From the IMG/VR virus record IMGVR_UViG_3300002026_002465, positions 96,001-160,000 of that record: a DNA stretch of 64,000 nt. One strand, 5' to 3'. A program made the position numbers and the translations under genes. Shown piece after piece: positions 180-14,945 of this stretch (position 1 is the stretch's first letter; each line of letters opens with the position of its first letter). A model generated the notes under the pieces. It ran no database searches and was not told the DNA's origin. It saw only the letters and a program-made list of their open reading frames with translations. The DNA is from a virus.

Positions 180-1100
180 CTAACACTTAAATTCCTTGAG
201 TGCATTATCTATATCATTTTCAATAAAAAAATTAGATTTATAATTTCTATATTTTTCTATTCCTGAATTACAATCCAATACTGAATAATTATATTTTTTA
301 TCTAAAACTTCTTTCATTATTTCATATACTAATCCTTCATCATAAACATGATGAAGTGCATCTTTATATACCAAAGCATTTGGATATATTTTTTCTATAG
401 AATCTTTATTATAATCAGTATATTGCACTTCTATTAAATTTAAATGGGATATACCTATTTTATCAAATATTTCAAGATGTGATAACAATAAATCCTTGTG
501 CAAAGGCCATGATGGTTCTTCTATTGTTATAATAAATCCCATTTCTTTTGCATCATACAAATAGTCAAAAACTTTTTTAGAAAAACCACTTGCACTTATG
601 TGCACTCTAAGTTCTTGAATATTCATATTCTTTAATATTAATAAATTTTCTTTATTTAATAACAATCCATTAGTATAAATATGTTTGTAAATATTGTAAT
701 TATTATTTGATTCTATTTTTGAAAGTAATTTTGAAAATTCTTCATATTCATTTAAATATAATAATGACTCTCCCCATGTATTAAATGATACTGTTTTTGG
801 TTTGAAATTTAAATCTAAACTCTTTTTATATAATTCTTTAATTTCAGTTTTTGGAATATCATTGAAATAATCAAGCATTTCATTGTCAATATTATTATAA
901 TAACACATTGGACATTTTAATTGACATTTAGTTCCAACATGAATAGCAAATGATTGATTTGTTTTAAAACAAGATATACATCCTGGAGATATTTTTCCTA
1001 TGTGAATGCAATCACCATTTACATGCTTTTCAAGTTCTGGTATAGATTTTTGAGATTCTAATTTTTTCTGGAAAATATCACTATAAGATACTATTTTCAT
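180..1100 (-). CDS. Radical SAM protein, COG2108-like subfamily
   Basis: CQLKCPMC motif preceded by GKISPGCISC; YTNG and ELRVH barrel motifs. Start moved to the ATG at 1100, which gives an ATGA overlap with the upstream stop. Confidence 0.85.
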   Translation of the reverse strand: MKIVSYSDIFQKKLESQKSIPELEKHVNGDCIHIGKISPGCISCFKTNQSFAIHVGTKCQLKCPMCYYNNIDNEMLDYFNDIPKTEIKELYKKSLDLNFKPKTVSFNTWGESLLYLNEYEEFSKLLSKIESNNNYNIYKHIYTNGLLLNKENLLILKNMNIQELRVHISASGFSKKVFDYLYDAKEMGFIITIEEPSWPLHKDLLLSHLEIFDKIGISHLNLIEVQYTDYNKDSIEKIYPNALVYKDALHHVYDEGLVYEIMKEVLDKKYNYSVLDCNSGIEKYRNYKSNFFIENDIDNALKEFKC

Positions 1101-2629
1101 GTTTTTTCGCCACAAATAACTAAAGCACTAAACTCACCAACATTGAATATATTTTCTATATTATATTTTTCTTTCGTTTTGATTAATCTATCTTCTATAA
1201 AATTTTTGTCAAAAATAACACCATTGTTAAAAACATTATAAATTAATATTATTTTTCCAGAAAATTTATTTTGTTTATATAATTTATATCTAAAATCAAA
1301 TTCATCTAGTGTGTTGTCAATGCCTGCATTAAGAATATAATCAAATTTATGATGATCAATAATACAGTCTTCATCATTGATTGTAAAATTAATTTTCGAT
1401 CCATTAAAAGTTTTTAAAATATTTGCTATTTTAATAGAAGTTTCATCAATATCAAATCCATGTATTAATATATTTGGAAACACTTCTTCTAGAATAAATG
1501 AATTTGTGCCATTATTACAGCAAATATCTAGAATTTTACTTCCAGATTTAATATCTAATTGTTTAAGCAATAATTTTCTAGCACTGTAAGATTGAATATC
1601 ACAGTCAAATAATATTTCATTGTTTAAAATAATAGGTGAAACAAGTTTATTATTCTCTTTTGAATATTTTAATAAATCTAAAATATCTTTTTTATATTCT
1701 ATTGGATAAATATCTAATTCATTTTGATAAAGATCAACATATTCTTTCCAAACACCTAAACATTTATTGTTATATACACATCTTAAACATTCTTGAGGTT
1801 TTTTAAAGTCATATTTAACCATCTCTTTAAAGTCACCATCAGGTTCATAGCCTGGATTGTCATTTACAAGTTCTATACATCTATCATATGATGAATATGA
1901 TTGATATTCTTCTAATGATCCTTCAATTTGATGTTTAAAACCTTGTAAATAACATGGAGGGAAGGCACTTGTATATATTTTATAATAATATTTACTTAAA
2001 ATATTATGAACAATATCTTTTAAGTCTGAATATTTTGGAACAACATTGTAAAAATCAGCCAATGCATTTCCCATAGCATGAGGAAATGTTAAACTTGAAT
2101 TATCAACATTTAACATATGAAAGAAATCAAATGTTTTTTCAAGTGATAATAAATTATATTTTGATATAACCGTTTGTGTTTGTATTTTAAATTTATCAGA
2201 TTTTAAATTAATTAGATTTGATAGTCCATTCAATGTATCATCCCATGAACCTTCTTTTTGACAAATAAAATCGTGTTCTACTTTATCAAAAGAATGTATA
2301 GCTACAAGAAAAGAATCTACATATTTTACAAGTTCTTTTGTAAGATTTATATCTTTAAGTCCAGTGCCATTTGTTTGTAGATCTATAGTGCAACTTGGAT
2401 TTATCTTTTTTATATATTGAACCATATCAACTAAATCTGGCCTTATTGTTGGTTCACCCCCTGTGATAGTGAATTTATCACATGTAGAGTATTTGTCTAT
2501 TATATTTTTCAATTCATCAAGAGAAAAATCAGGTCTATGTGTATATTGTTTTTTATCTGAAACAACACAATGAACACAATTATGATTACAATTCCAGCCC
2601 ACTTTTAAATCAATATGACTTTCTAACAT
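1097..2629 (-). CDS. Radical SAM protein (HxsC-like) fused to a C-terminal class I SAM-dependent methyltransferase
   Basis: CNHNCVHC, TGGEPT, LQTNG and a CLRCVYNNKCLGV cluster; the C-terminal region has ILDICCNNG (motif I) and HGFDID (motif II). Confidence 0.85.
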   Translation of the reverse strand: MLESHIDLKVGWNCNHNCVHCVVSDKKQYTHRPDFSLDELKNIIDKYSTCDKFTITGGEPTIRPDLVDMVQYIKKINPSCTIDLQTNGTGLKDINLTKELVKYVDSFLVAIHSFDKVEHDFICQKEGSWDDTLNGLSNLINLKSDKFKIQTQTVISKYNLLSLEKTFDFFHMLNVDNSSLTFPHAMGNALADFYNVVPKYSDLKDIVHNILSKYYYKIYTSAFPPCYLQGFKHQIEGSLEEYQSYSSYDRCIELVNDNPGYEPDGDFKEMVKYDFKKPQECLRCVYNNKCLGVWKEYVDLYQNELDIYPIEYKKDILDLLKYSKENNKLVSPIILNNEILFDCDIQSYSARKLLLKQLDIKSGSKILDICCNNGTNSFILEEVFPNILIHGFDIDETSIKIANILKTFNGSKINFTINDEDCIIDHHKFDYILNAGIDNTLDEFDFRYKLYKQNKFSGKIILIYNVFNNGVIFDKNFIEDRLIKTKEKYNIENIFNVGEFSALVICGEKT

Positions 2630-2639
2630 TAATTAATCC

Positions 2640-3101
2640 TTATAATGACTTTACGTATTCTATTGCTTTTTCCATATTAAAAAACATTACATCTTTTTTT
2701 GTATATTCATACATGTTATCTTCAATATAATTAAATTCTGGTATTAATGCTTTTTCTTTTTTAATGTCGAAAGTATCATCCTGTTTAGGATTACTTTTAT
2801 CAAAATACTCTTTAAATTTATTAAAATTATTAACTTCAATTGTTTTTATTGAACTATCAAATATAAGTTTCCACCTTGTTTTTACCATTTCAAATTTATC
2901 ATCATCTTTCAGAAAGTTTTTTACTGTCATAATGTCATATACTGTTGGACAGTCTTGTTGTATTATTATTATTTTATTTAAAAGCTCTTTGTAATTATCG
3001 TTTATTACAATATCAATATGACTTTTTATAACTTCATCAATACCATAGCCTATATTATTAATTAAATAAGCGTTTTTTATTTCCTCTCCATTATAATTCA
3101 T
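2640..3101 (-). CDS. Hypothetical rSAM-cluster accessory protein, paralog of 11251-11709
   Basis: 153-aa ORF inside the operon; aligns by eye with 11251-11709 (ID-I-DN, NF..D.F..K...FD....EV, N.+.A+..+K). Confidence 0.7.
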   Translation of the reverse strand: MNYNGEEIKNAYLINNIGYGIDEVIKSHIDIVINDNYKELLNKIIIIQQDCPTVYDIMTVKNFLKDDDKFEMVKTRWKLIFDSSIKTIEVNNFNKFKEYFDKSNPKQDDTFDIKKEKALIPEFNYIEDNMYEYTKKDVMFFNMEKAIEYVKSL

Positions 3102-3999
3102 TGTTTACCTCCCAATTTAAAAATACATTTGTTACAGGTTTTAAAAATTTATCATCATAAATATAATAATAAGATTTATGAATTCCAAGACAATATTCAA
3201 AATGTGTGCATTTTTCACAATTAAAATGAAAAACATTTTCTTTAAATAAATCTCTTATTTGTTTTATTCCATTTTCTTTTTTCAAAGAAGCTAAAATCCA
3301 ATTATATTCTATAGAATATTTAACAAGATTTTTTAATTCACATATAGGAATATATGCTATTCTATATTTACTTTTATCTCTTGAATTACTAATTATAGTA
3401 TTTAATATATTATATACATCACCATATAAAGGTAAAAATTTTTGTATTTCACTTATATCAGCATTAAATGGATTATATACTTTAAAAAAAATATCAGCAT
3501 TTGGCCATTTTGAACTTACATAAGAATTCCATTCCTCCATAGAATCTAAATTTATTTTATTTACAACAACTCCAATTGTTATTTCTTTAAATTTATAATT
3601 ATAAATTTTATCTATTAATTGTATTTTTTCTTTATAAAATACTCTATTACAAAGTTTATCATGTATTTCTTCAATGTGACTATCTAAAGATGTAGATATT
3701 GATATCTTAGATATGTCTCTTTTAATAAACTCATCAAAAAAAGCATTATCATTAAATTTTAATAAATTACTTATCACAAGTATATTATCAAACTTATTTA
3801 GACAAATATCTAATATTTCAAAAAAATCTGGTCTTATAGTTGGTTCACCACCTGTAATAGTTATATTACTACTTTCACATTTAATAATATCTATTTGTTT
3901 TAAAATATCATTTGAAGATGGAATTGGAGAGTTTTTTTCTCCACAGAACTCACAATCTAAATTGCATATTCCACCCAAATTAATATCATTAACAATCAT
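3091..3999 (-). CDS. Radical SAM protein, HxsC-like
   Basis: CNLDCEFC, TGGEPT and C-terminal CEKCTHFEYCLGI. Confidence 0.85.
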   Translation of the reverse strand: MIVNDINLGGICNLDCEFCGEKNSPIPSSNDILKQIDIIKCESSNITITGGEPTIRPDFFEILDICLNKFDNILVISNLLKFNDNAFFDEFIKRDISKISISTSLDSHIEEIHDKLCNRVFYKEKIQLIDKIYNYKFKEITIGVVVNKINLDSMEEWNSYVSSKWPNADIFFKVYNPFNADISEIQKFLPLYGDVYNILNTIISNSRDKSKYRIAYIPICELKNLVKYSIEYNWILASLKKENGIKQIRDLFKENVFHFNCEKCTHFEYCLGIHKSYYYIYDDKFLKPVTNVFLNWEVNNEL

Positions 4000-4658
4000 A
4001 GATTATCTTGATATGTTGCTGGATTAGTGAATACATTTAAATATGTTAAATTAGCATATGCTGTTGCTGTGTTTAAATGACTACTTCCTGTATTAGAATG
4101 ATTTCCATGATTTCTATGGCATGTATAACTTCTAGTATTTGAACTATGTGAGTTGCTATGATTTTGATAACCATTAAGATATGATGGTGCAGGACTATCT
4201 GTATAGTTTGAATAATTAGCATAGGCAGCTACTTGTTTAAGTCTTGTAGCAATTTCATCTATTTTTGATTTTGTAATTACTTCTCCTTCTACAACAGGCC
4301 CAACTGATCCTAACATCCCCATTTCTGACATTTCATCTAATAACCCTGAATATGTTCCATTTATTACACCACTTTGTTCATTAAGATGTTCTTGTTCAAT
4401 TATTTCACTATCTGCAACTTCAGTATCTGAAACACGAGTATATGTTGGAGATCCTGCATACCCAAACTGTATTTTTACAGCTTTTGCATGTTGTCTAAGC
4501 TGTTTTAATGTTTCACCATCTAATTTTGTATCTGCTTTTACTGTTCCATCAGCATTAAAATATGTTGAGTTAAACGGTAAATCTAATGGCCATTTTTTAG
4601 CGGAGTCATCAATTTCAGTAGCTGCATTTGAATAATTTGCGTAATTTACATATCCCAT
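3996..4658 (-). CDS. Putative rSAM substrate/precursor protein (220 aa) with Y/H/F-x-N repeats
   Basis: ATG at 4658 has AGGAG 8 nt upstream; begins YVNYANYSN; the C-terminal ~75 aa hold 12 aromatic-x-Asn motifs; embedded among rSAM genes. The CDS is solid, the function is inferred. Confidence 0.75.
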   Translation of the reverse strand: MGYVNYANYSNAATEIDDSAKKWPLDLPFNSTYFNADGTVKADTKLDGETLKQLRQHAKAVKIQFGYAGSPTYTRVSDTEVADSEIIEQEHLNEQSGVINGTYSGLLDEMSEMGMLGSVGPVVEGEVITKSKIDEIATRLKQVAAYANYSNYTDSPAPSYLNGYQNHSNSHSSNTRSYTCHRNHGNHSNTGSSHLNTATAYANLTYLNVFTNPATYQDNL

Positions 4659-4660
4659 AA

Positions 4661-5605
4661 CTATATCTCCTTTTTTAAGAATCCTAGGCATGGACCTGGA
4701 CACTCTTTGAATAAGAAACAACATTTTTTACATTCTTCAGGTAAACCTTGTGTCGAATATGCTAACCTTTTTCTAAGAAAAAGTTCATTTTCAACTGTAT
4801 TCAATAAAGAATGTTTATCCATATCAACTCTTATGTTTTCTCCTGGATAACAATATTGAACTTCTGATGGATTCAAAATATCAACTGGAATTCCATTTTC
4901 ACAACCATATTTGAACCCTTCAAGCCATTCTAATAAAAATGTTTTTACAGTATTATCTTTGATCATACACGGATAAATTCCGCAATCTAGATTAAATTTT
5001 ACTTTATTTTTTATACCCCAATTAACAAAATCAATAATTCTATCAATATATTCATAATTATTAAAAAAATACATTTTACTATTAGTATCTTTTGGGTTTG
5101 GAAATGGTAAACTTATTCTTGCTCTACTAAACACATCACCTAATTTTTCCTTATACTTATTTAAATTATCTTCATAATATTTAAAATCATAATCAAGATT
5201 GATTGTATACCCTAATCTTATATTAGCATTAGTGTATTTAGATATTAATAGCATGTTTTCAGATGTTAAATCAAACTGTTGTTGAGATACTTCAGAAACA
5301 TTTATTAAAAATCCAAGATTTTTTTCACTTATAAAATCTATAATACTGTTTAAAATTTTTTCTCCAAAAATAAAATTGCTTATTAAAGTAATTTTATTTG
5401 GTAGTGTTTTCAAATAAGATAGTATTTCAACAAAATTTGAATTATTTGTTGGTTCACCACCTAAAAGAGATATGTTATTATTTACAGTCATTTTTTTTAC
5501 AATGTTTTTTACATCATCTAATGACATTTCACTTTTATCTAGAACATCTTTAGCAAAGCAAAAAGAGCATCCTTTATTACATGAAGTAGTTAAGATAAGA
5601 TTCAT
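4661..5605 (-). CDS. Radical SAM protein with C-terminal SPASM/Twitch-like Cys cluster
   Basis: CNKGCSFC, LLGGEPT; C-terminal C..VDI....YCYP and CKKC....CPGPC. Confidence 0.85.
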   Translation of the reverse strand: MNLILTTSCNKGCSFCFAKDVLDKSEMSLDDVKNIVKKMTVNNNISLLGGEPTNNSNFVEILSYLKTLPNKITLISNFIFGEKILNSIIDFISEKNLGFLINVSEVSQQQFDLTSENMLLISKYTNANIRLGYTINLDYDFKYYEDNLNKYKEKLGDVFSRARISLPFPNPKDTNSKMYFFNNYEYIDRIIDFVNWGIKNKVKFNLDCGIYPCMIKDNTVKTFLLEWLEGFKYGCENGIPVDILNPSEVQYCYPGENIRVDMDKHSLLNTVENELFLRKRLAYSTQGLPEECKKCCFLFKECPGPCLGFLKKEI

Positions 5606-6800
5606 TTTTTATTTCATCCTTTAATAGTTCTGATATTTTTAGTCTATTTTTATTAAAAAACTCTGATAACCCTTTATTAAACTCACAAGTTGCATCATCA
5701 ATAATACCTTTTCCATATTTTTGATATGAAAAGCTTAAGCATCCATAATCGCAAAATGCTTGTGAAGAACAAAGATTACATTTTCTTTCTATAACTGCAT
5801 CTGCTTTTGATCTATGAAATTGCCACATTTTATGTGTATGTATTAATTCACCAACATCTTTAGACGTTACATTGCCTGATGATACATTATTACTTTTTTC
5901 AGAATTTCTACCACAAAAAAGAGTTGTTCCATCTGGTTCAACTTCTAATATTCCATTTCCAGCACCACAATATCTCGTATAGCATATATCTCCAACACTT
6001 ATTTCTTGACCAAAACTAATGTTTTCAATATATTTTTTCATTTTATTATATAGAGTTTCTTCTTTAAAGCCCTTATTGTCAAACATAAAATTAATTATTT
6101 TTATTGATGCTTCTAAATTTTCTTGTGCTGTTAACTCAAATTCACTTCCAGTATTTGCAACATCAACAGCCCTATTAATTTTAATAGAATTAAAACCCAT
6201 TGATTGTATCATTCTTAAATCATCAACTATTGTTAAATGATTTTGTTTGTGTAAAATAGATAATAAACCTGGTTGTAATCCATAACCTCTTAATTTTATT
6301 ATATTTTCTAATAATTTACCATTTGCATTCCTATTAGAATCAGAAATTCCAAACCCATCAAAACTCACTCCAGGACTTATATTATATCTTCTAAATATTC
6401 CAATCCATTCATCGTCAATTAAAGTGCCATTTGTTTGCAAAGATATTGCAAGCATTTTTCCATGCTCTCTTGCAAGTTGTGTTGCAATTTTACAAAATGC
6501 AGAAAACTTTTCTTTACCTATTTTTAGTGCTTCCCCTCCATGAAAAACTAAACTTAGTGGATTCCATTTTTGGAGATTTTCAGTTTTAGTATCAGAATTT
6601 AAAGCATCTATTAAACTTTGTTGAGATTCTATATTACCGTGAGATGTTTCTAAAAACCACCTTCTAATAGTATTCTCAAACACCTCATATGACATTGATT
6701 CTTCACTATAGTCATCTTTATGAAACACATAACAATATGAGCACCTTAAATTACACCCTCTTGTAACTTTTAGAATTACTTGTCTAGTATTTTGAAACAT
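5577..6800 (-). CDS. Radical SAM/SPASM maturase (anSME/HxsB-like)
   Basis: TRGCNLRCSYC, FHGGE, QTNG, SFDG; SPASM motifs CYTRYCGAG, EPDG..FC and CNLCSSQAFCDYGC. Confidence 0.9.
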   Translation of the reverse strand: MFQNTRQVILKVTRGCNLRCSYCYVFHKDDYSEESMSYEVFENTIRRWFLETSHGNIESQQSLIDALNSDTKTENLQKWNPLSLVFHGGEALKIGKEKFSAFCKIATQLAREHGKMLAISLQTNGTLIDDEWIGIFRRYNISPGVSFDGFGISDSNRNANGKLLENIIKLRGYGLQPGLLSILHKQNHLTIVDDLRMIQSMGFNSIKINRAVDVANTGSEFELTAQENLEASIKIINFMFDNKGFKEETLYNKMKKYIENISFGQEISVGDICYTRYCGAGNGILEVEPDGTTLFCGRNSEKSNNVSSGNVTSKDVGELIHTHKMWQFHRSKADAVIERKCNLCSSQAFCDYGCLSFSYQKYGKGIIDDATCEFNKGLSEFFNKNRLKISELLKDEIKNESYLNYFM

Positions 6801-6801
6801 T

Positions 6802-7089
6802 TTATTCTCCTATTGTTTTATGCTCATTAAAACCAGATTCACCTATTGGATTTTCAGACTGAATTTTTTCAGATTCAGAAGTAAAATTTTCAATATGACC
6901 TATTAACCTATCAAAACAAACGTCACAATACAAAGATGTTGTTTTTCTACACATACTAGCATCCATTTCACTTTGATTTGTATTTGGGTCTTTAATCCAT
7001 GTTTTAAAATCTATAACTATTTCATGATAATATCTATTTTTATAGATGTTTTTACCACAACCGTCACATTCAACTACTGAGTATTTCAT
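6802..7089 (-). CDS. Small CxxC...CxxC zinc-finger-like protein, paralog of 13975-14199
   Basis: CDGCGK ... YCDVCFD; similar spacing to CTRCKN ... LCDDCFN. Confidence 0.7.
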   Translation of the reverse strand: MKYSVVECDGCGKNIYKNRYYHEIVIDFKTWIKDPNTNQSEMDASMCRKTTSLYCDVCFDRLIGHIENFTSESEKIQSENPIGESGFNEHKTIGE

Positions 7090-8123
7090 AATTTCTCCTT
7101 TGTGTATTCATTAAATTCATCTTCTAATATTTTAATTCCAACCATTATAGAGCAAAAAACATCTCTTGATTCTTTAAACGCTGCATAACATCCTGTTCTA
7201 CAAAAATCTTTTGCTTTACAATCTTCACATGTTTTATCATAAAAATCATTTGATTTAATTTTATCATAATTTGTAACATTAAATTTCATATTAGGAAAAT
7301 CATTAAGATTTAAATATATTTTTTTCTTATCATATTCTAGACCACAATGGGATATTTCACCAGATGGAAAAACTGAAAAAGATAGATGTTTATCAAGACA
7401 GTATTGCTTATTTTTAGTTATAAAATTTAAAAAATCTAAACTGCCAAACTCCAATGCTGTTTTAGCAAATTGTTTTAATAGTGTTTGAACAAAATTCTTT
7501 GCATCTTTTTTAGGTGAAAAGAAATCTATTGAAGTTGAGTGTTCTAATTTTAATGAGTCAAGAAACTTTTTATCTTCTAAAAAAGATCCAGCATTATTTT
7601 CTGATATTGTCCTATTAATAAAAACTTTATTTGGAAATATAGATGCAAACGTCATTAGATTGTTTATTGTTTTATTAAATGATCCTAATCCTCTAACCTT
7701 ATCATGAGTGATTTCACTACTATCTAATGATATGCTTATTTCACTATACATTGCTCCCATAAATTCAATTTGTTCTTTACTATAATCTAAAGTTAAATTT
7801 GTAACAAGAGATAATTCACAGTTTGGTATAGACTTTAATATTAATGTATAATTATAAAAATATTGCCAGTCTAATGTGGGCTCGCCACCATTTATTAAAA
7901 TATGTAATGTATTATCAGGGTGTCTATACATATTAATCATTTGTGTAAAATTATAAAAATTTTCTATTGAAAGCTTTTCTTTTGTATTTTTATGAAATTT
8001 ATTTTCATTATTTTTATGCACACAATAATTACAATTTAAATTACAATCAAAAGATGGAAATATAGTAACATCATCTATTCTTATTTCATTTTTTATAGGA
8101 TTATCAACCTCAAAATAGCTCAT
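7086..8123 (-). CDS. Radical SAM/SPASM protein
   Basis: CNLNCNYC, NGGEPT, ISLD; C....SVFPSGEISHC and CEDCKAKDFCRTGC. Confidence 0.88.
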   Translation of the reverse strand: MSYFEVDNPIKNEIRIDDVTIFPSFDCNLNCNYCVHKNNENKFHKNTKEKLSIENFYNFTQMINMYRHPDNTLHILINGGEPTLDWQYFYNYTLILKSIPNCELSLVTNLTLDYSKEQIEFMGAMYSEISISLDSSEITHDKVRGLGSFNKTINNLMTFASIFPNKVFINRTISENNAGSFLEDKKFLDSLKLEHSTSIDFFSPKKDAKNFVQTLLKQFAKTALEFGSLDFLNFITKNKQYCLDKHLSFSVFPSGEISHCGLEYDKKKIYLNLNDFPNMKFNVTNYDKIKSNDFYDKTCEDCKAKDFCRTGCYAAFKESRDVFCSIMVGIKILEDEFNEYTKEKL

Positions 8124-9058
8124 TTTTTCTCCTTATCAACCATATTTTTAAAATCATTTTCATCATCAAGAACCTCATTTCTATTTACAATATATCTTGC
8201 TCTAACTGTATCGGAGTTACAATCAAGAACTGAAAATTTATAATTTTTATTTATTACCTCTTCCATTATATCATATACAAGACCTTCATCATATAGATGA
8301 TAGTTTAGATTTTTATACATTCTTCCTTCTGGATAAATAGAATTTACTTTTTGAATATTCATTGGAGTTATATCTATTTCATCTAAATTTAAATGTTTGA
8401 CCCCAATAGAATCAAAAAGTTTAATTGCTTCAAACAACTTATCTCTATTGAGCATCCATGATGGTTCTTCTACTGTTACTCTAAATCCATTTTTTGCTGC
8501 ATGTTCCATGTTATTATATACTTTAATTGAAAAATCACTTGCACTTATATGAAATCTTATTTCTTCAATATCTAAATCTTTTAATATTTGAGTGTTATTC
8601 ATATCATATAAAATACCTGTAGTGTATATTCTTTTATGAATATTAATATTTCTTTTTGTTTCAATCTGTTTGATAATTTTTGAGGTTGATAAATAATGTT
8701 CTAAATATAAAAAAGGCTCTCCAATTGAATTATAACATATATTTGATGGAGAGTAATTCTCATCAAAAAGTTTTGAATAATAAAATTCATTTGTATTTAT
8801 AATATCTTTCTCTATTGATTTACTTTCATCAGTATTATTGTGTAATGTTGTGTAATAACACATTGGACATTGAAATGGACATTTATTTCCAATAAAAATA
8901 CTTTTTCTACATGCCTTTTCAGTAAAACATCCTTCACATCCTGGAGATATTTTGCCTATATGAGAAGCAAAACCATTTGCATGAAGTATAAGATTTGGTA
9001 TGTTTTTTTGTCTTAAATATTTTTCATTTAATATAGTTCTGAAATCAACTAAAATCAT
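8120..9058 (-). CDS. Radical SAM protein, COG2108-like, paralog of 180-1100
   Basis: GKISPGCEGC and CPFQCPMC; shares EEPSW, YDEGLVY.IM and SVLDCNS with 180-1100. Confidence 0.85.
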   Translation of the reverse strand: MILVDFRTILNEKYLRQKNIPNLILHANGFASHIGKISPGCEGCFTEKACRKSIFIGNKCPFQCPMCYYTTLHNNTDESKSIEKDIINTNEFYYSKLFDENYSPSNICYNSIGEPFLYLEHYLSTSKIIKQIETKRNINIHKRIYTTGILYDMNNTQILKDLDIEEIRFHISASDFSIKVYNNMEHAAKNGFRVTVEEPSWMLNRDKLFEAIKLFDSIGVKHLNLDEIDITPMNIQKVNSIYPEGRMYKNLNYHLYDEGLVYDIMEEVINKNYKFSVLDCNSDTVRARYIVNRNEVLDDENDFKNMVDKEKK

Positions 9059-9849
9059 GGTATCCTTTTAAAAACACTTGTATTCATTTCAAGAAAATTA
9101 AATTGTGTGCTTCCTTCATAAGAAGGATTTAACAATCTATCAACATCACTGCTCCAATAAAATATTGAATTTGTTCTATTTTTTGAAAAATAGAGATTGC
9201 TCATTATATCTAAAGTTTCATAGCTGGATATATACCAGTTTATATTTTTATAAATCTTATTATCATAAAATTTATTTTGATTATTTACTTCAACATCTCT
9301 TAGGATGATATAATTAAATTTATCAATAATACTTTCTAATAATGTATAATCTTCTTGAGAATATTTAATAAGAGGAATTTCTAATACTGAATTAGATACA
9401 ATATATTTATAATTAAAATCACTCTGAAAAGTATATCTAGTTTCATTTAAGTTAGGATAAATACCATCACTATTAACATATCCAAATGTGTATGTAGATT
9501 CATTTAATAAATCATTATATTCATTTATATAATTAAATGTTTTTATATCAGCATAACCATTTACTGATACAATATGAGGAGATGATTTATTAATTCTAAC
9601 ATAATTAGAAAGATTTTCTAATCTCCACGTTATATGGTCTGATAATTTAGAATTATAATAATTTGCATAATATTGCACTTCTAATAAATATTGAATATAT
9701 TCAGACTTTGGTATAGAGAAAAAGTCTATAAAAGAATAAGGAATATTACCTTTATAAATACAATACCCTGAGTAGTCAGAAATATATGGATATTTTAATA
9801 TAGTCTTATATTTATTTATAAATTCATCTTGAAAATTAATTTTAATCAT
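9055..9849 (-). CDS. Degenerate paralog of the COG2108-like rSAM proteins lacking the Fe-S cysteines
   Basis: GYCIYKGNIPYS resembles GDCIHIGKISPG; KIYKNINWY..LDIM..KN..S...SDVDR resembles RMYKNLNYH..YDIM..KN..SVLDCNSDTVR; no CxxxCxxC. Confidence 0.6.
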   Translation of the reverse strand: MIKINFQDEFINKYKTILKYPYISDYSGYCIYKGNIPYSFIDFFSIPKSEYIQYLLEVQYYANYYNSKLSDHITWRLENLSNYVRINKSSPHIVSVNGYADIKTFNYINEYNDLLNESTYTFGYVNSDGIYPNLNETRYTFQSDFNYKYIVSNSVLEIPLIKYSQEDYTLLESIIDKFNYIILRDVEVNNQNKFYDNKIYKNINWYISSYETLDIMSNLYFSKNRTNSIFYWSSDVDRLLNPSYEGSTQFNFLEMNTSVFKRIP

Positions 9850-9868
9850 TGTTATATTAACTATGCTT

Positions 9869-11185
9869 TTATTTTGAATTAATTATATTCAAAAACTCAT
9901 TAGTTTTATCTAATAATTGCGTATTAAAGTATTCTCCTTTTGATTGAATATTAATATTCAAATTTTTTTTATATTCAAATGTACCCTCATATTCTTTTAA
10001 ATATAGAAATGATTCGAATATATATAAATACAAACCACTTATATTAGGAATATTAGAAATATATTTAAAAAACTCAGTAATTATTTCAGAATCTGATTTA
10101 TAATCATTTATATCAAATTGTTTAAAATATACAGGCTCTTTATTTTTATAAACTTCAATATATTGAAAATCTTGACCTATTTTAGAATAAATATCCACAA
10201 TGTTTTTCATTCTACCAGGTTTAATCTTATTTTCTATTTTAGAACCTATACCTAAAATAGAAAATGTTGGTTCAGATTTTAATATATCATCTTGACTTTT
10301 ATACTGTGGATATATCTTATTTATAAATAAATTTAAAGGTATTGTATTTTTTATTAAATTTACCTTATTAAACTCTCGTAAAATATTAAAAATTTTTTCA
10401 TAAGACAAAGTTTCATCTTTAAATTTAAAAAGTCCAGATGGATAATATCCAAATTTTTTACAAAATTCTAAAATAAATATACAATATGTTTTATATAAAT
10501 CTTCTGATGGATATAATTCCTTATTATTTTTATCTGAAAAACTATAATCAATTGCTAAATTAATTTCATCTACACCCATGGAAGCAACATTAAACATATC
10601 ATAAATCATTTTTTCTACATGATCTTTTTCTTTCCAAAAGATTATAAAGTCGGTTAAAACATATATATTTTGTTTTTTAAAATCTGAAATAATTTTAGGA
10701 ATATTCTCATAATTTTTATATATCCTATTTTGCTTTTTTAAATATTCTTTATCAAAAGTCTGTATACAAAGAATAATAGAGTTAAAGTTGTATTCGCCAA
10801 GAAGTAACGATTGTTCTTCTATATAAGCAGACGGATGAATTTCCATTAGTTTTGATTCTATTTGTTTAAAATTTGGAATTTTTTCAAAAACCATTCTCAT
10901 GTCATCTATAGACATAATATTAGCCGTTCCGCCACCAAAACAATATGTTTCAATTTCTGAATTCGCAATTATATTAGAATAAAAATCAATTTGAGATATT
11001 AAATATGTAATATAATCTTGATATTTAGTACTTTCTTCATAATTTTGAGATATTATTGAACCATGAAAAGGACAATATAAGCAATTAGTGAAGCAAAATG
11101 GATTATGCACATAAACTCTTACAGGAGTGTTATTAAACTCCCATAAATCTAAAATAGATTCTTTTAATATTTCTTGTAGTTTCAT
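9869..11185 (-). CDS. HemN-like (class C) radical SAM protein
   Basis: VYVHNPFCFTNCLYC, FGGGT, CIQTF and LGIGS match HemN-family signatures. Confidence 0.8.
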   Translation of the reverse strand: MKLQEILKESILDLWEFNNTPVRVYVHNPFCFTNCLYCPFHGSIISQNYEESTKYQDYITYLISQIDFYSNIIANSEIETYCFGGGTANIMSIDDMRMVFEKIPNFKQIESKLMEIHPSAYIEEQSLLLGEYNFNSIILCIQTFDKEYLKKQNRIYKNYENIPKIISDFKKQNIYVLTDFIIFWKEKDHVEKMIYDMFNVASMGVDEINLAIDYSFSDKNNKELYPSEDLYKTYCIFILEFCKKFGYYPSGLFKFKDETLSYEKIFNILREFNKVNLIKNTIPLNLFINKIYPQYKSQDDILKSEPTFSILGIGSKIENKIKPGRMKNIVDIYSKIGQDFQYIEVYKNKEPVYFKQFDINDYKSDSEIITEFFKYISNIPNISGLYLYIFESFLYLKEYEGTFEYKKNLNINIQSKGEYFNTQLLDKTNEFLNIINSK

Positions 11186-11194
11186 TATAAGAAA

Positions 11195-11220
11195 TATGCT
11201 TTTTCAAATGAAAAAGCATA
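11195..11220. promoter_or_regulatory. Perfect 12-bp inverted repeat between the divergent rSAM operons
   Basis: TATGCTTTTTCA-AA-TGAAAAAGCATA in the 65-bp divergent intergenic gap. Confidence 0.6.
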
Positions 11221-11250
11221 AATTTATGTTTTTTTTCATAAGATAATAAT

Positions 11251-11709
11251 ATGATAAAAATAACAACTATTGATAATATATATGAAGTGCTGCAAGATAC
11301 TACAAGTGTTGAAGAAAGATGTGAAATTGCTATAAAATTAATTGATACTATTATTAAAGATAATTTCAATGAGTATTATATAATTTTTTTAGATAATTAT
11401 AACGTTCCAGTTCAGTGGAGTGATTTTGAGAATTTTTGTATAAAAGAAAATTTAGATTTTGATAAATATAAAAAGTTGACTAATCAATGTTTCGATAAAG
11501 CAACATTATATTTAGAAGTTGTTGATCTAGAAAAAATAAAAATCAACTACCCAAAGGATAAATTTCCAAAAGATGTAAATAACTACACTCCTTATGGATA
11601 TAGTAACTATCCAAATAGATTCAGAATTTATAATAGAGACATCGCCATGGATCTTATTAAAAACTACTCTCTACAAGAACTAGAAAAGTATAGTCATGAT
11701 TTATCATAA
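11251..11709 (+). CDS. Hypothetical rSAM-cluster accessory protein, paralog of 2640-3101
   Basis: 152-aa ORF; motif similarity to 2640-3101; directly upstream of an HxsC-like rSAM. Confidence 0.7.
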   Translation: MIKITTIDNIYEVLQDTTSVEERCEIAIKLIDTIIKDNFNEYYIIFLDNYNVPVQWSDFENFCIKENLDFDKYKKLTNQCFDKATLYLEVVDLEKIKINYPKDKFPKDVNNYTPYGYSNYPNRFRIYNRDIAMDLIKNYSLQELEKYSHDLS

Positions 11710-11746
11710 GTAAGGCATATTTTAGTAGTTAGTAATAGAGGTAAAA

Positions 11747-12718
11747 ATGCTTAAATGTTTAGATCTTGAAACGGAAAACACCAATGATTATTGGGGTTCA
11801 ATAATTATTTATGGGCACCAAAAATGTATGAATACTTGTTTGTTTTGTTCAGGTAAAAACGAATCAATTGATGATGATACTATAAAATATAAAAAAGCAA
11901 TTTATGATGCTGATTATTTAATAAGTAGTGGTGTAAATAAAATAGAAATATCTGGTGGAGATCCAGGTGAATTTAGTATGATTGTTGATGTTGTGTCTTA
12001 TTTAAAAACTAAAGGTATTAAAACAATTCAATTATCAACACACGGAAGAACTCTTATTAATGAAAATTTTGTAAAAAAATTAAAGGATGCAGGTGTTACT
12101 TTGTTTAAAATACCATTATATGGTAGCACACAAGAAATACATAATAAAAGTGTCCAGGTTGATAATTCAATAGATAATGCTTTTTCAGACACAATTACAG
12201 GTATTAAAAATTGTAATAAACATGGCATGAGTATAATAGGATATATTTTATTAAATCAATATAATAAAAATGATATTACAAATATAGTAAGATTATATTT
12301 AAGCATCTCAAATTATATTTATAAAATAATAATAGGAATAACATTTATTTCAACTGTTGAATATAGTTATACAAGAGATTGGTTTTTACCAATAAAAGAT
12401 ATGAAACCATATCTTGAAGATATATTGATTGAATTTTCTAAAAATAATATAAATTTTGAGATGATTGATATTCCTTATTGTGCTATTGGTAAGTATTCTG
12501 AAAATATAGATAATAGACTTATTTTTCCAAATCTTGGAAATCATAAAGTAGAAGAACAAAATAGATCAACAATTTCAGATTTTATTCCTCATTATAGAAT
12601 TAAATCATATTTTAATGAATGTAATTCTTGTAACTTAAAAAATCTATGTAGTGGTATTCCAATCAATGAAATTAAAATGTTTGGAATATATGGACTTGAA
12701 GGAGTTGGAAGTGTTTAG
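11747..12718 (+). CDS. Radical SAM protein, HxsC-like
   Basis: CMNTCLFC, SGGDP, LSTHG, DIPYC and C-terminal CNSCNLKNLCSGI; GAGG Shine-Dalgarno. Confidence 0.85.
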   Translation: MLKCLDLETENTNDYWGSIIIYGHQKCMNTCLFCSGKNESIDDDTIKYKKAIYDADYLISSGVNKIEISGGDPGEFSMIVDVVSYLKTKGIKTIQLSTHGRTLINENFVKKLKDAGVTLFKIPLYGSTQEIHNKSVQVDNSIDNAFSDTITGIKNCNKHGMSIIGYILLNQYNKNDITNIVRLYLSISNYIYKIIIGITFISTVEYSYTRDWFLPIKDMKPYLEDILIEFSKNNINFEMIDIPYCAIGKYSENIDNRLIFPNLGNHKVEEQNRSTISDFIPHYRIKSYFNECNSCNLKNLCSGIPINEIKMFGIYGLEGVGSV

Positions 12719-13973
12719 ATTTACAGATTTAATTATATTTAGATTAACAAGGGGGTGTAATCTAAATTGTAAATATTGTTTTATGCAAAATAAAGAAGAA
12801 TATAAAAATGAAAAAATAGATTTTGAACTTTTTAAAAAAATAATAGATAGAATTATAGAACAAAGACTAATAAATTCAAAACATACACAACTATCACTTG
12901 TTTTTCATGGTGGAGAATTTTTAACTATAGGGAAAAAAAGCCTGTATGAAATTTTAGAATATACAACTGCCCAAATGAATCTAAATAATATAGATTGTGA
13001 ATTAGGTTGTCAAACAAATGGGGTATTATTAGATGATGAAATTGCAAAAATATTAAGTAAATTTAGTGTAGGAATAGGACTTAGTTTTGATGGTGTAAAT
13101 GGTTCTAATGACTTGCGTGATATTAAACAGGAAATATTTGAAAGCAAGTTTGAAATATTAAAGAAAAATAAAAACAATTTTGGTTTTCTTATCATTGCAA
13201 ACAAATCTAATATTGATAAAATCCAAGATTCACAAGATTATATTAAAAAGTTAAATAGAACAAATGGATATAAAATAAATTATTCTGAAGATATGATAAA
13301 TCCTGGTGAAAACAGTGAAATAGAAGTCTCTGGTAAAGAAATGTTTGAGAAAGTTTTTAAGCCAGAATTATTACGTATTTTAAAAGGAGAACAACCTGAA
13401 GAACATAACACAAAAGAACTTTTAACAAAAGCAATAATAGATATTTTATCATATCATGAAAATGGCACAAAATCAGGTTGTGGCACTAAATGGTGTGGTG
13501 CTGGTATCTCAATGATAGCAATAGAGCCTGATGGTGAAATGGATTATTGTGATAGATATTCCAAAAAATTTTCTGAAACATATATTCAACATGCTTTAGA
13601 TTATGATTTTTTAGGTATATATCAATTAAATAAAATGATACAATACAATAAAATGAAAGCTAAATTATATAATAATTATGAGTGTGATACTTGTTATGCT
13701 GATTATATATGTAATCATGGTTGTGAATCATTTTATTATTCTAAATATGGTGAATATGGAATTGATACTAGACTAGTGTGTGATCAGTATAAAATGTTTT
13801 ATAGTTTTGTTCTAGAAAATATTGTTGAATTTGTTAAAAAACGTGAAATTGTTTCATATGCAAATGATACTATAATTAAGATTAGACCAAACATTAATTA
13901 CTTATTTTTTTCTTATGGAATTGACTTGATAATAACAGATGATAAAAAAAGCATAATTATTAAAAGGACATAA
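12711..13973 (+). CDS. Radical SAM/SPASM maturase (anSME/HxsB-like), paralog of 5577-6800
   Basis: TRGCNLNCKYC, FHGGE, QTNG, SFDG, CGTKWCGAG, EPDG..YC and CDTCYADYICNHGC. The GTG start at 12711 after GGAG gives MFRFT, matching MFQNT of the paralog. Confidence 0.9.
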   Translation: MFRFTDLIIFRLTRGCNLNCKYCFMQNKEEYKNEKIDFELFKKIIDRIIEQRLINSKHTQLSLVFHGGEFLTIGKKSLYEILEYTTAQMNLNNIDCELGCQTNGVLLDDEIAKILSKFSVGIGLSFDGVNGSNDLRDIKQEIFESKFEILKKNKNNFGFLIIANKSNIDKIQDSQDYIKKLNRTNGYKINYSEDMINPGENSEIEVSGKEMFEKVFKPELLRILKGEQPEEHNTKELLTKAIIDILSYHENGTKSGCGTKWCGAGISMIAIEPDGEMDYCDRYSKKFSETYIQHALDYDFLGIYQLNKMIQYNKMKAKLYNNYECDTCYADYICNHGCESFYYSKYGEYGIDTRLVCDQYKMFYSFVLENIVEFVKKREIVSYANDTIIKIRPNINYLFFSYGIDLIITDDKKSIIIKRT

Positions 13974-13974
13974 C

Positions 13975-14199
13975 ATGAATAAAAATTATTGTACTAGATG
14001 TAAAAATGAAATTATAGATATGGCAATTATAGTTGATTTTAAAATAAGTGTTGGAAGAGTAAAAAATAGTGGAATATTTGAAAACATTCCAAATCTTGAA
14101 AACAACTCAAGAGAAGTTTTATGTGATGATTGTTTTAACAAGTTTTCACTTTTAATGGAAGGCTTAAATATAAAATACAATAAAAAAGTGGAGAATTAA
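13975..14199 (+). CDS. Small CxxC...CxxC zinc-finger-like protein
   Basis: CTRC ... CDDC; paralog of 6802-7089. Confidence 0.7.
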   Translation: MNKNYCTRCKNEIIDMAIIVDFKISVGRVKNSGIFENIPNLENNSREVLCDDCFNKFSLLMEGLNIKYNKKVEN

Positions 14200-14945
14200 T
14201 GATATTAATAGCAGGACCTTGTGTTCTAGAAAATAAAGATATGCTTGATAAAGTTGCATCTTATTTAGTAGAGTTTAAAAAAGATAGTGATTTTTATCTT
14301 AAGGCATCATGTGTTAAAGATAATAGAACAAAGACCAATAATTTTAGTGGTCTTGGTTTTGAAAAGTGTTTAGATATATTTATTGAGATAAAAAATAAAT
14401 ATGGAGTGAAAATAACAACTGACTTCCATAATGAAGAGCAGTTAGAAAATTATGGTATGTATTTTGATCTTATTCAAATACCGGCATTCTTGGCAAGACA
14501 ACAATCTCTATTAAAAAAGGCTGTTGAATTGAATTTGCCTATCCATGTCAAAAAATCTCAATTTACATCACCATATAATACTATAGATATTGTAAGCATA
14601 TTAAAAGATTTTGGGCACTCTGAAGAAATAATGATAACTGATAGAGGAACTCAGTTTGGTTATGATAGAGTTATTATGGATCCACGTCACATTGCTTGGA
14701 TGCAAAATGATGGAGCTAAAACATTAGTTGATATAACCCATCCTAATAAACTCCTTGGGGAACCTTTAAAGTTAGCTAAAATATTAGCTGAATCTTATAT
14801 GATGGCAGGAGTAAATGGTGTATTTTTAGAAACACATCCAAACCCTGCAGAGGCTCTTTGTGATGCTGATACTCAAATTAATATAGATGATTCTGTTGTT
14901 CTAATAAGGAAATTATTAAAACTAGAAAAGTATATAAAGGAATAA
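14199..14945 (+). CDS. kdsA: 3-deoxy-D-manno-octulosonate 8-phosphate synthase-like (metal-dependent type)
   Basis: IAGPC, KAS..K.NR, TDFH, QIPAFL.RQ, VKK.QF, RG..FGY, D.TH and FLETHP.P..ALCD. Confidence 0.9.
   Translation: MILIAGPCVLENKDMLDKVASYLVEFKKDSDFYLKASCVKDNRTKTNNFSGLGFEKCLDIFIEIKNKYGVKITTDFHNEEQLENYGMYFDLIQIPAFLARQQSLLKKAVELNLPIHVKKSQFTSPYNTIDIVSILKDFGHSEEIMITDRGTQFGYDRVIMDPRHIAWMQNDGAKTLVDITHPNKLLGEPLKLAKILAESYMMAGVNGVFLETHPNPAEALCDADTQINIDDSVVLIRKLLKLEKYIKE

What the first reader, a model, noticed from the sequence alone, without database searches (positions are those of the whole stretch)
3996..4658. Unusual leader-less substrate architecture: aromatic-x-Asn triplets at both termini flanking three helical V-x-x-G/D-x-x-I repeats
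Seen in sequence: the protein starts immediately with YVN-YAN-YSN. Its last ~75 aa hold YAN, YSN, YLN, YQN, HSN, HRN, HGN, HSN, HLN, YAN, YLN and FTN, plus YTD and YQD. The middle has three similar segments (VKADTKLDGETLKQLRQHA, VADSEIIEQEHLNEQSGVI, VVEGEVITKSKIDEIATRL). Tyr-type and His-type motifs fall in blocks, which could explain the need for several paralogous enzymes. Inference: classical RiPP precursors have an N-terminal leader and a short core. This looks more like a structural protein with internal recognition repeats and two modified ends.
Basis: partly seen in the sequence, partly recalled or inferred. Interest (0 to 1): 0.8.

Follow-up and report, generated by a model that had tools for sequence, protein, structure and literature searches.

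The report
Phage protein with Tyr/His-x-Asn ends
A large uncultured phage encodes a 220-residue protein with a folded middle and two floppy ends packed with Tyr/His-x-Asn triplets, always next to the same radical-SAM enzymes; these enzymes probably cross-link the triplets into small rings, which would be peptide-antibiotic chemistry applied to a whole protein.

Summary
The ORF is real. It lies on the minus strand (ATG 4658, stop 3996-3998), has an AAGGAGA ribosome site and overlaps both radical-SAM (rSAM) neighbours.

**Motif.** It carries 17 aromatic-x-Asn triplets where 2.8±1.5 are expected, and the excess exists only at i/i+2 spacing. All 18 members of its small metagenome-only family share the layout: 2-4 triplets in the first ~20 residues, 0-3 in the middle, 9-18 in the tail. 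Some triplets are kept in 17/17 homologs. A distant sister family (hhalign probability 94%) repeats this layout.

**Middle.** It is one confidently modelled helical domain (pLDDT 83) with no known fold. It is not three repeats.

**Partners.** In all seven contexts read, the gene follows a small 4-Cys protein, a SPASM rSAM and a second rSAM. This is the same order as HxsD-B-C-A of the HXS antiphage system. The SPASM enzyme is nearest, below family cut-offs, to cyclophane-forming maturases.

**Reading.** Most likely this is a protein-sized, two-ended substrate for triceptide-like Tyr/His-to-Asn cross-links. The chemistry is not shown.

**Virion role.** Not established. In the sister family the island sits among early genes.

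The scan has reported rSAM cassettes with Cys-His-tailed proteins in other phages, but not this family.

The parts
3996..4658 (-). Substrate gene, 220 aa (P0001). It is single-copy in the 178-kb phage record.
   Evidence: An HMM of the family finds no paralog in the genome.
4666..4672 (-). Ribosome-binding site AAGGAGA, 7 nt before the ATG and inside the end of the upstream rSAM gene. This indicates translational coupling.
4626..4652 (-). N-terminal motif cluster, residues 3-11: YVN-YAN-YSN, three contiguous triplets.
   Evidence: Every one of the 18 family members has 2-4 triplets in its first ~20 residues. The Y9-x-N column is kept in 15/17 homologs.
4215..4610 (-). Central folded domain, about residues 17-148. 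Mainly helical, with helices at about 48-65, 106-112 and 130-150. Only 2 triplets (YFN at 33, HLN at 91), and these are not conserved.
   Evidence: AF2 on a 26-sequence alignment gave pLDDT 82.8 and pTM 0.81. No fold match was found. R55 and A60 are invariant.
3999..4223 (-). C-terminal motif tail, residues 146-220: 14 aromatic-x-Asn/Asp triplets arranged as a Tyr block, a His block and a Tyr/Phe block. Predicted disordered. Ends in the conserved NPATYQDNL.
   Evidence: pLDDT below 50 for residues 149-209. Triplets at 146 and 149 are kept in 17/17 homologs, 216 in 16/17, and 160, 201 and 206 in 15/17.
4661..5605 (-). rSAM enzyme, 314 aa, always immediately upstream of the substrate (the 'HxsC position').
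   Evidence: Pfam PF04055. Orthologs of 34-40% identity sit directly before the substrate in L003, L004 and L005. A like-sized rSAM gene holds the same place in the P0003 contig, L006 and L007.
5577..6800 (-). rSAM/SPASM enzyme, 407 aa (the 'HxsB position'). It is the candidate cross-linking enzyme.
   Evidence: Pfam Radical_SAM and SPASM. Best NCBIfam hits, all below cut-off: DynA, PapB, anSME, YhhB, XyeB, AmcB. Solved relatives: anSME, ChlB, CteB. Orthologs of 43-48% identity in L003-L005.
6802..7089 (-). Small 4-Cys protein, 95 aa (CxxC...CxxC), always upstream of the SPASM enzyme (the 'HxsD position'). Its role is unknown.
   Evidence: Orthologs in L003, L004 and L005. No family hit.
3091..3999 (-). 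HxsC-like rSAM, 302 aa. Its start overlaps the substrate's stop codon.
   Evidence: TIGR03977 HxsC is the best hit at 59.5 bits, against a cut-off of 267.9.
180..3101 (-). Further island genes on the substrate's strand: an rSAM (180-1115), an HxsC4-like rSAM fused to a methyltransferase (1097-2629) and a 153-aa accessory protein (2640-3101).
7086..11185 (-). Upstream island genes: rSAM (7086-8123), rSAM (8120-9058, 45% identical to 180-1115), a 264-aa protein without a family (9055-9849) and rSAM (9869-11185).
11251..14199 (+). Divergent arm: a 152-aa accessory protein, an rSAM (11747-12718), a SPASM-type paralog of 5577-6800 (12651-13973, 31% identity) and a 74-aa 4-Cys protein.

Best explanation
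The ORF encodes the single dedicated protein substrate of a phage-borne radical-SAM maturation island.

**Shown**
- It has a compact, conserved central domain of about 130 residues, flanked by two disordered ends.
- The information in those ends is almost entirely the repeated triplet aromatic(Tyr/His/Phe)-small residue-Asn/Asp. The triplets often follow one another directly.
- The gene is translationally coupled to, and always found with, a 4-Cys protein, a SPASM rSAM and a second rSAM.

**Inferred**
- The SPASM enzyme, helped or followed by the other rSAM enzymes, abstracts a hydrogen from the Asn/Asp beta-carbon. It joins that carbon to the ring of the aromatic residue two positions earlier, as triceptide synthases do. 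This would give strings of three-residue cyclophane rings at both ends, costing 2 Da each.
- The folded middle plays the part of a leader, as a docking platform carried in cis.
- It probably also carries the product's later function, because nothing in the island suggests cleavage or export. The mature product is therefore probably a protein with rigid, protease-resistant, ring-studded ends.

**My odds**
- It is the substrate of the neighbouring rSAM enzymes: 0.85.
- The chemistry is aromatic-to-Asn cross-linking: 0.5.
- The product stays protein-sized: 0.6.
- Where it acts (virion tail or baseplate, or an effector in the infected cell) is open.
For: **Motif**
- Enrichment occurs only at i/i+2, both in P0001 and in all 18 family members (z 3-10).
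- The layout is conserved. Single triplets are kept in up to 17/17 homologs that share only about 30% identity.
- The commonest distance between successive triplets is 3 residues, so would-be rings are contiguous. X2 is mostly Ser, Thr or Ala.

**Sister family**
- A distant sister family (L009, P0033-P0041) matches at hhalign probability 94%.
- It shows the same enrichment, 14-20 triplets against 4-5 expected (0/2000), next to orthologs of the same two enzymes.

**Specificity**
- Among 172 fetched loci, triplet-dense ORFs occur only in the loci that carry close relatives of this SPASM enzyme. None occurs around about 160 more distant SPASM rSAMs.

**Gene order and coupling**
- The order 4-Cys protein, SPASM rSAM, second rSAM, substrate is seen in seven contexts.
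- Genes overlap.

**Enzyme relatives**
- The SPASM enzyme's best matches include the cyclophane formers DynA, YhhB, XyeB, AmcB, FxsB, GrrM/OscB and ChlB.

**Published chemistry (review PMC11002830)**
- XncB and OscB link Trp or Phe to the beta-carbon of Asn at i+2.
- YxdB links Tyr-C3 to Asp.
- HaaB and YhhB use His-C2.
- The dynobactin enzyme links Trp to an Asn beta-carbon.

**Structure**
- The ends are predicted disordered and the centre folded.

**Precedent for a protein-sized rSAM substrate**
- HxsA is such a substrate, with the same gene order (PMC13128918).
Against: - No modification has been observed, and no RNA or protein data exist for this gene.
- Every rSAM match is far below its family cut-off. 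For example DynA scores 107.7 bits against a cut-off of 450.
- The SPASM enzyme matches anSME and the thioether-forming PapB about as well, so homology does not fix the chemistry.
- Ten or more rSAM enzymes are far more than cyclophane formation needs, so other or additional chemistry is likely.
- The methyltransferase fusion, and the B12-binding rSAMs after the substrate in L005 and L006, also point to additional chemistry.
- Known triceptide precursors, as I recall them, are short peptides with N-terminal leaders. This protein is not.
- The docking role of the central domain is pure inference. The complex predictor was not available.
Confidence: 0.5

Rival explanations
1. Same substrate, different chemistry. 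The rSAM enzymes would modify the triplets without making aromatic-Asn rings. Candidates are epimerisation, C-methylation, other cross-links, or the still undefined +8 Da change that HxsB/HxsC make on the SHRSS motif of HxsA.
For: - Two island enzymes are nearest to HxsC/HxsC4, and the gene order equals HxsD-B-C-A.
- The island holds an rSAM-methyltransferase fusion.
- B12-binding rSAMs follow the substrate in L005 and L006.
- The SPASM enzyme scores similarly against non-cyclophane families such as PapB, anSME and QhpD.
Against: - The strict aromatic(i)/Asn(i+2) register is exactly what defines triceptide sites. Epimerases and methylases have no known need for it.
- Both Tyr and Asn are near-invariant at the conserved triplets.
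Confidence: 0.25
2. Classical RiPP precursor with an oversized recognition domain. One or both modified ends would be cut off and released at lysis as small bioactive peptides. The middle would be discarded, like a very long leader or follower.
For: - The motif ends resemble multi-core triceptide precursors.
- Long, structured leaders are known in proteusins (PMC10858898 abstract).
Against: - No protease, transporter or immunity family was detected in the window's island, and none was on record among the genes of six related loci.
- No conserved cleavage motif is evident between domain and tails.
- Triplets start at residue 3 and run to within 3 residues of the C-terminus.
- The central domain is the best conserved globular part of the protein.
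Confidence: 0.12
3. Role as a virion part. The matured protein would be built into the tail or baseplate, where ring-stiffened ends serve adhesion or resistance to proteases.
For: - The island lies between a tail-fibre gene and gp25/gp6 baseplate genes here.
- In L004 the substrate gene is followed on the same strand by two small genes and then gp25 and gp6.
- Related islands in L006 and L007 sit next to a ~600-aa protein (599 and 606 aa) whose precomputed Pfam record carries a faint Cxxx-repeat rSAM-target flag. In the L006 protein I read a long Cys-repeat tail.
- Other agents of this scan reported rSAM cassettes around presumed virion proteins in other phages (unchecked).
Against: - The window phage and L004 are related, so they count as one observation.
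- In the sister-family phage the island sits between primase/homing endonuclease and RNA ligase/rIIA-rIIB.
- There is no PHROG, Pfam or fold similarity to any structural protein.
- The gene is translationally coupled to enzymes, which does not suggest high copy number.
Confidence: 0.3
4. Role as an effector in the infected cell. This would be a phage-borne counterpart of HxsA, for example excluding other phages or countering a host defence.
For: - Gene order and protein size match the HXS system, whose matured protein blocks phage DNA entry.
- The island sits in an early-gene neighbourhood in the L009 phage.
Against: - By eye there is no signal peptide or membrane segment, and no Pfam or NCBIfam domain of any kind, peptidoglycan-binding included, was found.
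- There is no HxsA, HxsB, HxsC or HxsD membership.
- The tails are not basic.
Confidence: 0.25
5. Not a substrate at all. The protein would be an Asn/Tyr-rich low-complexity segment or a run of N-x-S/T glycosylation sites, and the rSAM enzymes would act on something else, such as a sugar made by the neighbouring KdsA/KdsB genes.
For: - N-x-S/T is mildly enriched in the whole protein (8 against 3.9) and in the sister family.
- KdsA, KdsB and a transaldolase-like gene travel with the island here and in L004.
Against: - N-x-S/T is not enriched within the tail (5 against 3.5). It follows automatically from tandem Y-S-N units.
- The register-specific conservation and the exclusive co-occurrence with the enzymes argue for a substrate.
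- L003, L005 and L006 have the substrate and core enzymes but no Kds genes.
Confidence: 0.06

Closest known systems
Triceptides: three-residue cyclophane peptides made by rSAM/SPASM enzymes (XncB/XyeB, OscB/GrrM, MscB/FxsB, YxdB, YhhB, HaaB, HtkB, ChlB)
   Same: - The aromatic-X-X3 motif with a cross-link between residues i and i+2.
- Asn and Asp are known acceptors, and Tyr, His and Phe are known donors.
- Motifs are often repeated.
- The maker is a SPASM rSAM without a recognisable RRE domain (PMC11002830, PMC11499958).
   Different: - The substrate is a 220-aa protein with a folded centre, not (as I recall triceptide precursors) a short peptide with an N-terminal leader.
- Motifs sit at both termini.
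- There are 14-19 sites per protein.
- Up to 10 rSAM genes accompany it.
- It is phage-encoded.
- The enzymes score far below the cut-offs of all named families.
HXS antiphage system (HxsD-HxsB-HxsC-HxsA; Li et al., Nat Commun 2026, PMC13128918)
   Same: - Gene order is small protein, SPASM-type rSAM, second rSAM, then a substrate protein of about 215 aa.
- The substrate carries tandem His-x-small-polar triplets.
- The matured product is a protein, not a small peptide.
- HxsC/HxsC4 is the best-matching family for two island enzymes.
   Different: - The motif is Tyr/His-x-Asn, not His-x-Ser, and it lies at both ends.
- No peptidoglycan-binding domain or export signal was seen.
- No protein reaches the Hxs family cut-offs.
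- It is encoded by a phage, not by a bacterium defending itself.
Darobactin/dynobactin maturases (DarE, DynA)
   Same: - DynA is the best-scoring NCBIfam model for the 407-aa SPASM enzyme, with a near full-length alignment.
- The dynobactin enzyme joins a Trp ring to an Asn beta-carbon (PMC11002830).
   Different: - The score is 107.7 bits against a cut-off of 450.
- Those substrates are short peptides with one core (my recollection, not checked here).
- The products are secreted antibiotics.
QhpD/QhpC, the quinohemoprotein amine dehydrogenase gamma subunit cross-linked by a SPASM rSAM
   Same: - It is a precedent for a SPASM rSAM installing several intramolecular cross-links in a protein that stays part of a larger assembly. 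This is from my own knowledge.
- TIGR03906 is among the hits.
   Different: - The cross-links there are Cys-to-Asp/Glu thioethers.
- The substrate has no aromatic-x-Asn motif.
- It is bacterial.

Membership tests
Triceptide precursor / 3-CyFE system | Precursor carries aromatic-X-X3 motifs that are conserved among homologs | tested here: met
   There are 17 triplets against 2.8 expected, and only the i/i+2 spacing is enriched. Individual triplets are kept in up to 17/17 homologs.
Triceptide precursor / 3-CyFE system | Adjacent rSAM/SPASM enzyme belonging to a named 3-CyFE family (XyeB, GrrM/OscB, FxsB, YhhB, AmcB) | tested here: not met
   An rSAM/SPASM enzyme is adjacent, but all scores are sub-threshold: YhhB 81 against 445, XyeB 77 against 450, FxsB 64 against 370, GrrM 52 against 310.
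Triceptide precursor / 3-CyFE system | Short precursor peptide with an N-terminal leader and C-terminal core (typical rather than formally defining; from my own knowledge of the family) | tested here: not met
   The protein is 220 aa. Triplets start at residue 3, and a folded 130-residue domain lies between two motif clusters.
Triceptide precursor / 3-CyFE system | C-C bond between the aromatic ring and the beta-carbon of residue i+2 | not testable with these tools
   This needs mass spectrometry and NMR of the co-expressed product.
HXS system | HxsA, HxsB, HxsC and HxsD family membership (TIGR03976-03979) | tested here: not met
   The substrate and the 4-Cys protein have no hit. HxsB scores 35 bits against 370. 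HxsC scores 28-94 bits against 267.9.
HXS system | Gene order: small protein, rSAM B, rSAM C, substrate protein A | tested here: met
   The order is the same in the window and in six related contexts, compared with PMC13128918.
HXS system | Effector with His-x-Ser repeats, a peptidoglycan-binding domain and export to the periplasm | tested here: not met
   The repeats are Tyr/His-x-Asn. No Pfam or NCBIfam domain was found. No N-terminal hydrophobic signal is visible in the sequence.
Phage structural protein (tail or baseplate) | Sequence or fold similarity to a known virion protein family | tested here: inconclusive
   No PHROG hit. No BFVD or PDB fold match: best VIA Z is 6.7, rmsd 3.0 over 113 residues, to a designed helical filament.

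The most novel reading that the evidence does not exclude
A virus-encoded 'poly-cyclophane protein'. Both disordered termini of a folded 220-residue protein would be turned into runs of contiguous Tyr/His-to-Asn three-residue rings, by a battery of up to ten radical-SAM enzymes. The protein's own central domain would act as a built-in docking platform in place of a leader peptide. This would be the first triceptide-type chemistry on a full-size protein, at both ends, and in a phage. The product would be used as a functional protein, either a particle part or an HxsA-like effector, rather than as a secreted peptide.
Probability: 0.35. Interest if true: 0.8.

Novelty: new variant of a known kind. 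Interest (0 to 1): 0.66.

Why it matters
- **Reach of the chemistry.** If the reading holds, ring-forming radical-SAM chemistry extends from small secreted peptides to whole proteins and to viruses.
- **A new substrate layout.** A folded domain presenting two modifiable tails could be reused to install cyclophane rings on proteins of choice.
- **Phage biology.** With the recently described HXS defence system and the other phage rSAM cassettes seen in this scan, it suggests phages and bacteria both use rSAM-matured proteins in their conflict or in building particles.
- **Testability.** The family is tiny, about 30 sequence clusters, all unnamed and from metagenomes. The core of four genes is compact enough for direct co-expression.

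Tried and rejected
**Searches with no result for the substrate**
- Pfam, NCBIfam (also at E up to 10), PHROGs and PADLOC gave no family.
- tblastn against 50,697 isolated-phage records found no match for either substrate family.
- An IMG/VR scan with the substrate alignment found none.
- Fold searches of both models (PDB Foldseek, BFVD twice, VIA-wide twice) gave nothing above background.

**Rejected leads**
- Long 'relatives' P0015 and P0016 from the representative search are unrelated repeat proteins.
- Internal triplication of the middle is rejected.
- An N-glycosylation sequon as the true motif is rejected within the tail.
- The T4-type late promoter TATAAATA is not above chance in this AT-rich window: 32 against 26±5.
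- Orthologs in cellular genomes: none. The best hit among 185,579 species genomes is 26% identical over nearly the full length; shorter partial matches reach 37%.

- The ESM Atlas look-ups and the atlas fold library were not available.

**Sequencing runs**
- No RNA holder is listed. The DNA is found in microbial-mat metagenomes of one study and may be the source sample.
- Laid contigs are identical, so they give no information on variation.
Full report
**Setting.** The window is bases 96,001-160,000 of a 177,948-bp IMG/VR virus record, estimated 74% complete. GC content is about 25%. The DNA occurs in microbial-mat metagenomes. Baseplate genes gp25 and gp6, and a tail-fibre gene, mark the phage as a distant T4-like myovirus.

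From about 180 to 13,973 lies an island of ten ORFs with Radical_SAM Pfam hits. They form two divergent, tightly packed arms together with several small proteins that have no family. A kdsA-kdsB-transaldolase-like trio follows, and then the baseplate genes.

**The gene.** The finding's ORF is on the minus strand. The longest frame starts at 4724, but that part lies inside the upstream rSAM gene. The real start is the ATG at 4658, preceded at 7 nt by AAGGAGA. The TGA at 3996-3998 overlaps the ATG of the next rSAM gene. Homologs also begin M-G/S/A followed at once by the motif. This fixes the start and shows that there is no N-terminal leader.

**The motif is real and not a by-product of composition.**
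- P0001 has 17 [YHFW]-x-N triplets against 2.8±1.5 in shuffles. With Asp as well, there are 19 triplets.
- Shuffling only the Asn/Tyr-rich last 76 residues still gives 12 against 2.9±1.4 (0 of 5000).
- The i+1 and i+3 spacings are at or below expectation there (0 and 2, against about 2.9).
- N-x-S/T is not enriched there.
- In this AT-rich genome the protein's triplet density is 2.4 times that of the next best ORF of at least 150 aa. No paralog exists.

**Family.** Searches of 5.8 billion proteins and 1.84 billion representatives found only a small, unnamed, metagenome-only family. In an 18-member alignment with about 30% mean identity, the invariant or near-invariant positions are dominated by the triplets. 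Y146, Y149, N151, Y201 and Y216 are invariant. N148, Y160, Y164 and Y206 are kept in at least 90%.

Per triplet, aromatic(i) plus Asn/Asp(i+2) is kept as follows:

| Triplet position | Homologs keeping it |
|---|---|
| 146, 149 | 17/17 |
| 216 | 16/17 |
| 9, 160, 201, 206 | 15/17 |

Every member has 2-4 triplets in its first ~20 residues, 0-3 in a middle of 115-160 residues, and 9-18 in the tail. The commonest gap between successive triplets is exactly three residues. X2 is mostly Ser, Thr or Ala.

**The middle.** They share 1-4 identities of 19. Shuffle p values are 0.07, 0.32 and 0.007. Profile-profile probabilities are 0.5-13%.

Folding the whole protein gave confident structure only for residues ~20-148, with both ends below pLDDT 50. 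Folding residues 14-152 with 26 sequences gave pLDDT 82.8 and pTM 0.81. The result is one compact, mainly helical domain. It matched nothing convincingly in the PDB or BFVD. The best VIA Z was 6.7 to a designed helical filament, within the tool's stated background.

**Partners.** Seven contexts were read: the window, the P0003 contig, and L003-L007. In each, the substrate gene directly follows an rSAM of 311-343 aa. That gene follows a ~400-aa rSAM, which carries a SPASM domain in the window and is 43-48% identical to it in L003-L005. That in turn follows a ~95-124-aa small protein, which is a 4-Cys protein in the window and has homologs in L003-L005. The remaining rSAM genes vary from 1 to 8.

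Searching IMG/VR with the SPASM enzyme recovered L009. There, orthologs of both core enzymes accompany two tandem proteins of 316 and 331 aa. These are remote homologs of the central domain (hhalign 94%, E 9.5e-8). They again have triplet-rich N- and C-terminal regions, with 14-20 triplets against 4-5 expected across this sister family.

Triplet-dense ORFs appear only where close relatives of this enzyme are present. No cellular genome has an ortholog: the best is 26% identical over nearly the full length, and shorter partial matches reach 37%.

**What the enzymes resemble.** The 407-aa enzyme has Radical_SAM and SPASM domains. Its best NCBIfam matches, all far below cut-off, are the following:

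| Family | Bits |
|---|---|
| DynA | 107.7 |
| PapB | 93.7 |
| anSME | 88.5 |
| YhhB | 81 |
| XyeB | 77 |
| QhpD | 76 |
| AmcB | 74 |

DarW, DarE, FxsB and GrrM/OscB follow. Among solved structures it is nearest to anSME, the triceptide synthase ChlB and CteB. Two other island enzymes are nearest to HxsC/HxsC4.

Published work shows that enzymes of this clade join an aromatic ring to the beta-carbon of the residue two positions on. Asn or Asp act as acceptors and Trp, Phe, Tyr or His as donors (PMC11002830, PMC11499958).

[quoted passage not shown] A 214-aa protein with five His-x-Ser repeats is matured by two rSAM enzymes and acts as a protein (PMC13128918). The organisational parallel with the present core is exact, but no component reaches the Hxs family thresholds.

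**Interpretation.** The evidence strongly supports a dedicated enzyme-substrate relationship. The triplets are the recognised or modified sites. The central domain is a folded element kept for docking, for function, or for both. The specific chemistry, Tyr/His-to-Asn cyclophanes, is the best-fitting inference, but it is not shown. The large and variable number of extra rSAM enzymes, a methyltransferase fusion and B12-type rSAMs in relatives suggest additional steps.

Loci whose substrates have His-rich blocks carry more rSAM genes than Tyr-dominated ones. The window, the P0003 contig, L004 and L007 have 4-10. L003, L005 and L006 have 3-4.

**Role.** The position between tail-fibre and baseplate genes here and in L004 suggests a particle protein. 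However, these two phages are related. In the sister-family phage the island lies among primase, homing endonuclease, RNA ligases and rIIA/rIIB. The island therefore behaves as a movable accessory cassette, and I leave virion part and intracellular effector at similar odds. No RNA data were available.

**Relation to earlier notes of the scan.** First-reader notes on this genome describe the same island and protein. Follow-up agents reported rSAM cassettes around Cys-His-tailed proteins in other phages, with the same two closest known systems. I did not test those. The Tyr/His-x-Asn family was not among them.

Noticed in passing
window 14199-16270; L004 1905-3965: A kdsA-kdsB-transaldolase-like trio (CMP-Kdo synthesis) travels with the rSAM island in both this phage and L004, at 46-60% identity. 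In L004 it lies inside the island, next to an aminotransferase and a methyltransferase. No Kdo transferase was identified.
   Followed up: partly
window 49006-49581: A 191-aa protein among the large tail-region genes matches a PHROG annotated alpha-2,3-sialyltransferase (E 2.7e-8). It could use a CMP-sugar such as CMP-Kdo.
   Followed up: no
L006 29-1828 (P0032); L007 6915-8735: A ~600-aa protein lies near related rSAM islands in both loci, and both carry a faint precomputed Pfam flag 'tSAM_targ_Cxxx_rpt' (PF27846). The L006 protein, which I translated, ends in roughly 210 residues rich in closely spaced Cys (mostly CxxxC). It looks like a second, larger rSAM substrate. None is present in the window's genome.
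   Followed up: partly
L009 3316-5276; flanks L011, L012: The sister-family phage carries two tandem substrate paralogs (46% identical). They are Cys-rich, with tails such as YSNHANHSNHSNYSN followed by CRRD-Y/N. Its island sits among early genes (primase, RNA ligases, rIIA/rIIB).
   Followed up: partly
window 11196-11219: A perfect AT-rich palindrome (ATGCTTTTTCA-AA-TGAAAAAGCAT) lies in the 65-nt gap between the two divergent rSAM operons. It may be an operator or a bidirectional terminator.
   Followed up: no
window 25571-39157: A single 4,528-aa ORF lies in the tail region. It was not examined.
   Followed up: no
window 180-1115 and 8120-9058; 5577-6800 and 12651-13973: The island contains internal paralog pairs, at 45% and 31% identity. 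Each SPASM paralog has its own small 4-Cys neighbour (6802-7089 and 13975-14199).
   Followed up: partly
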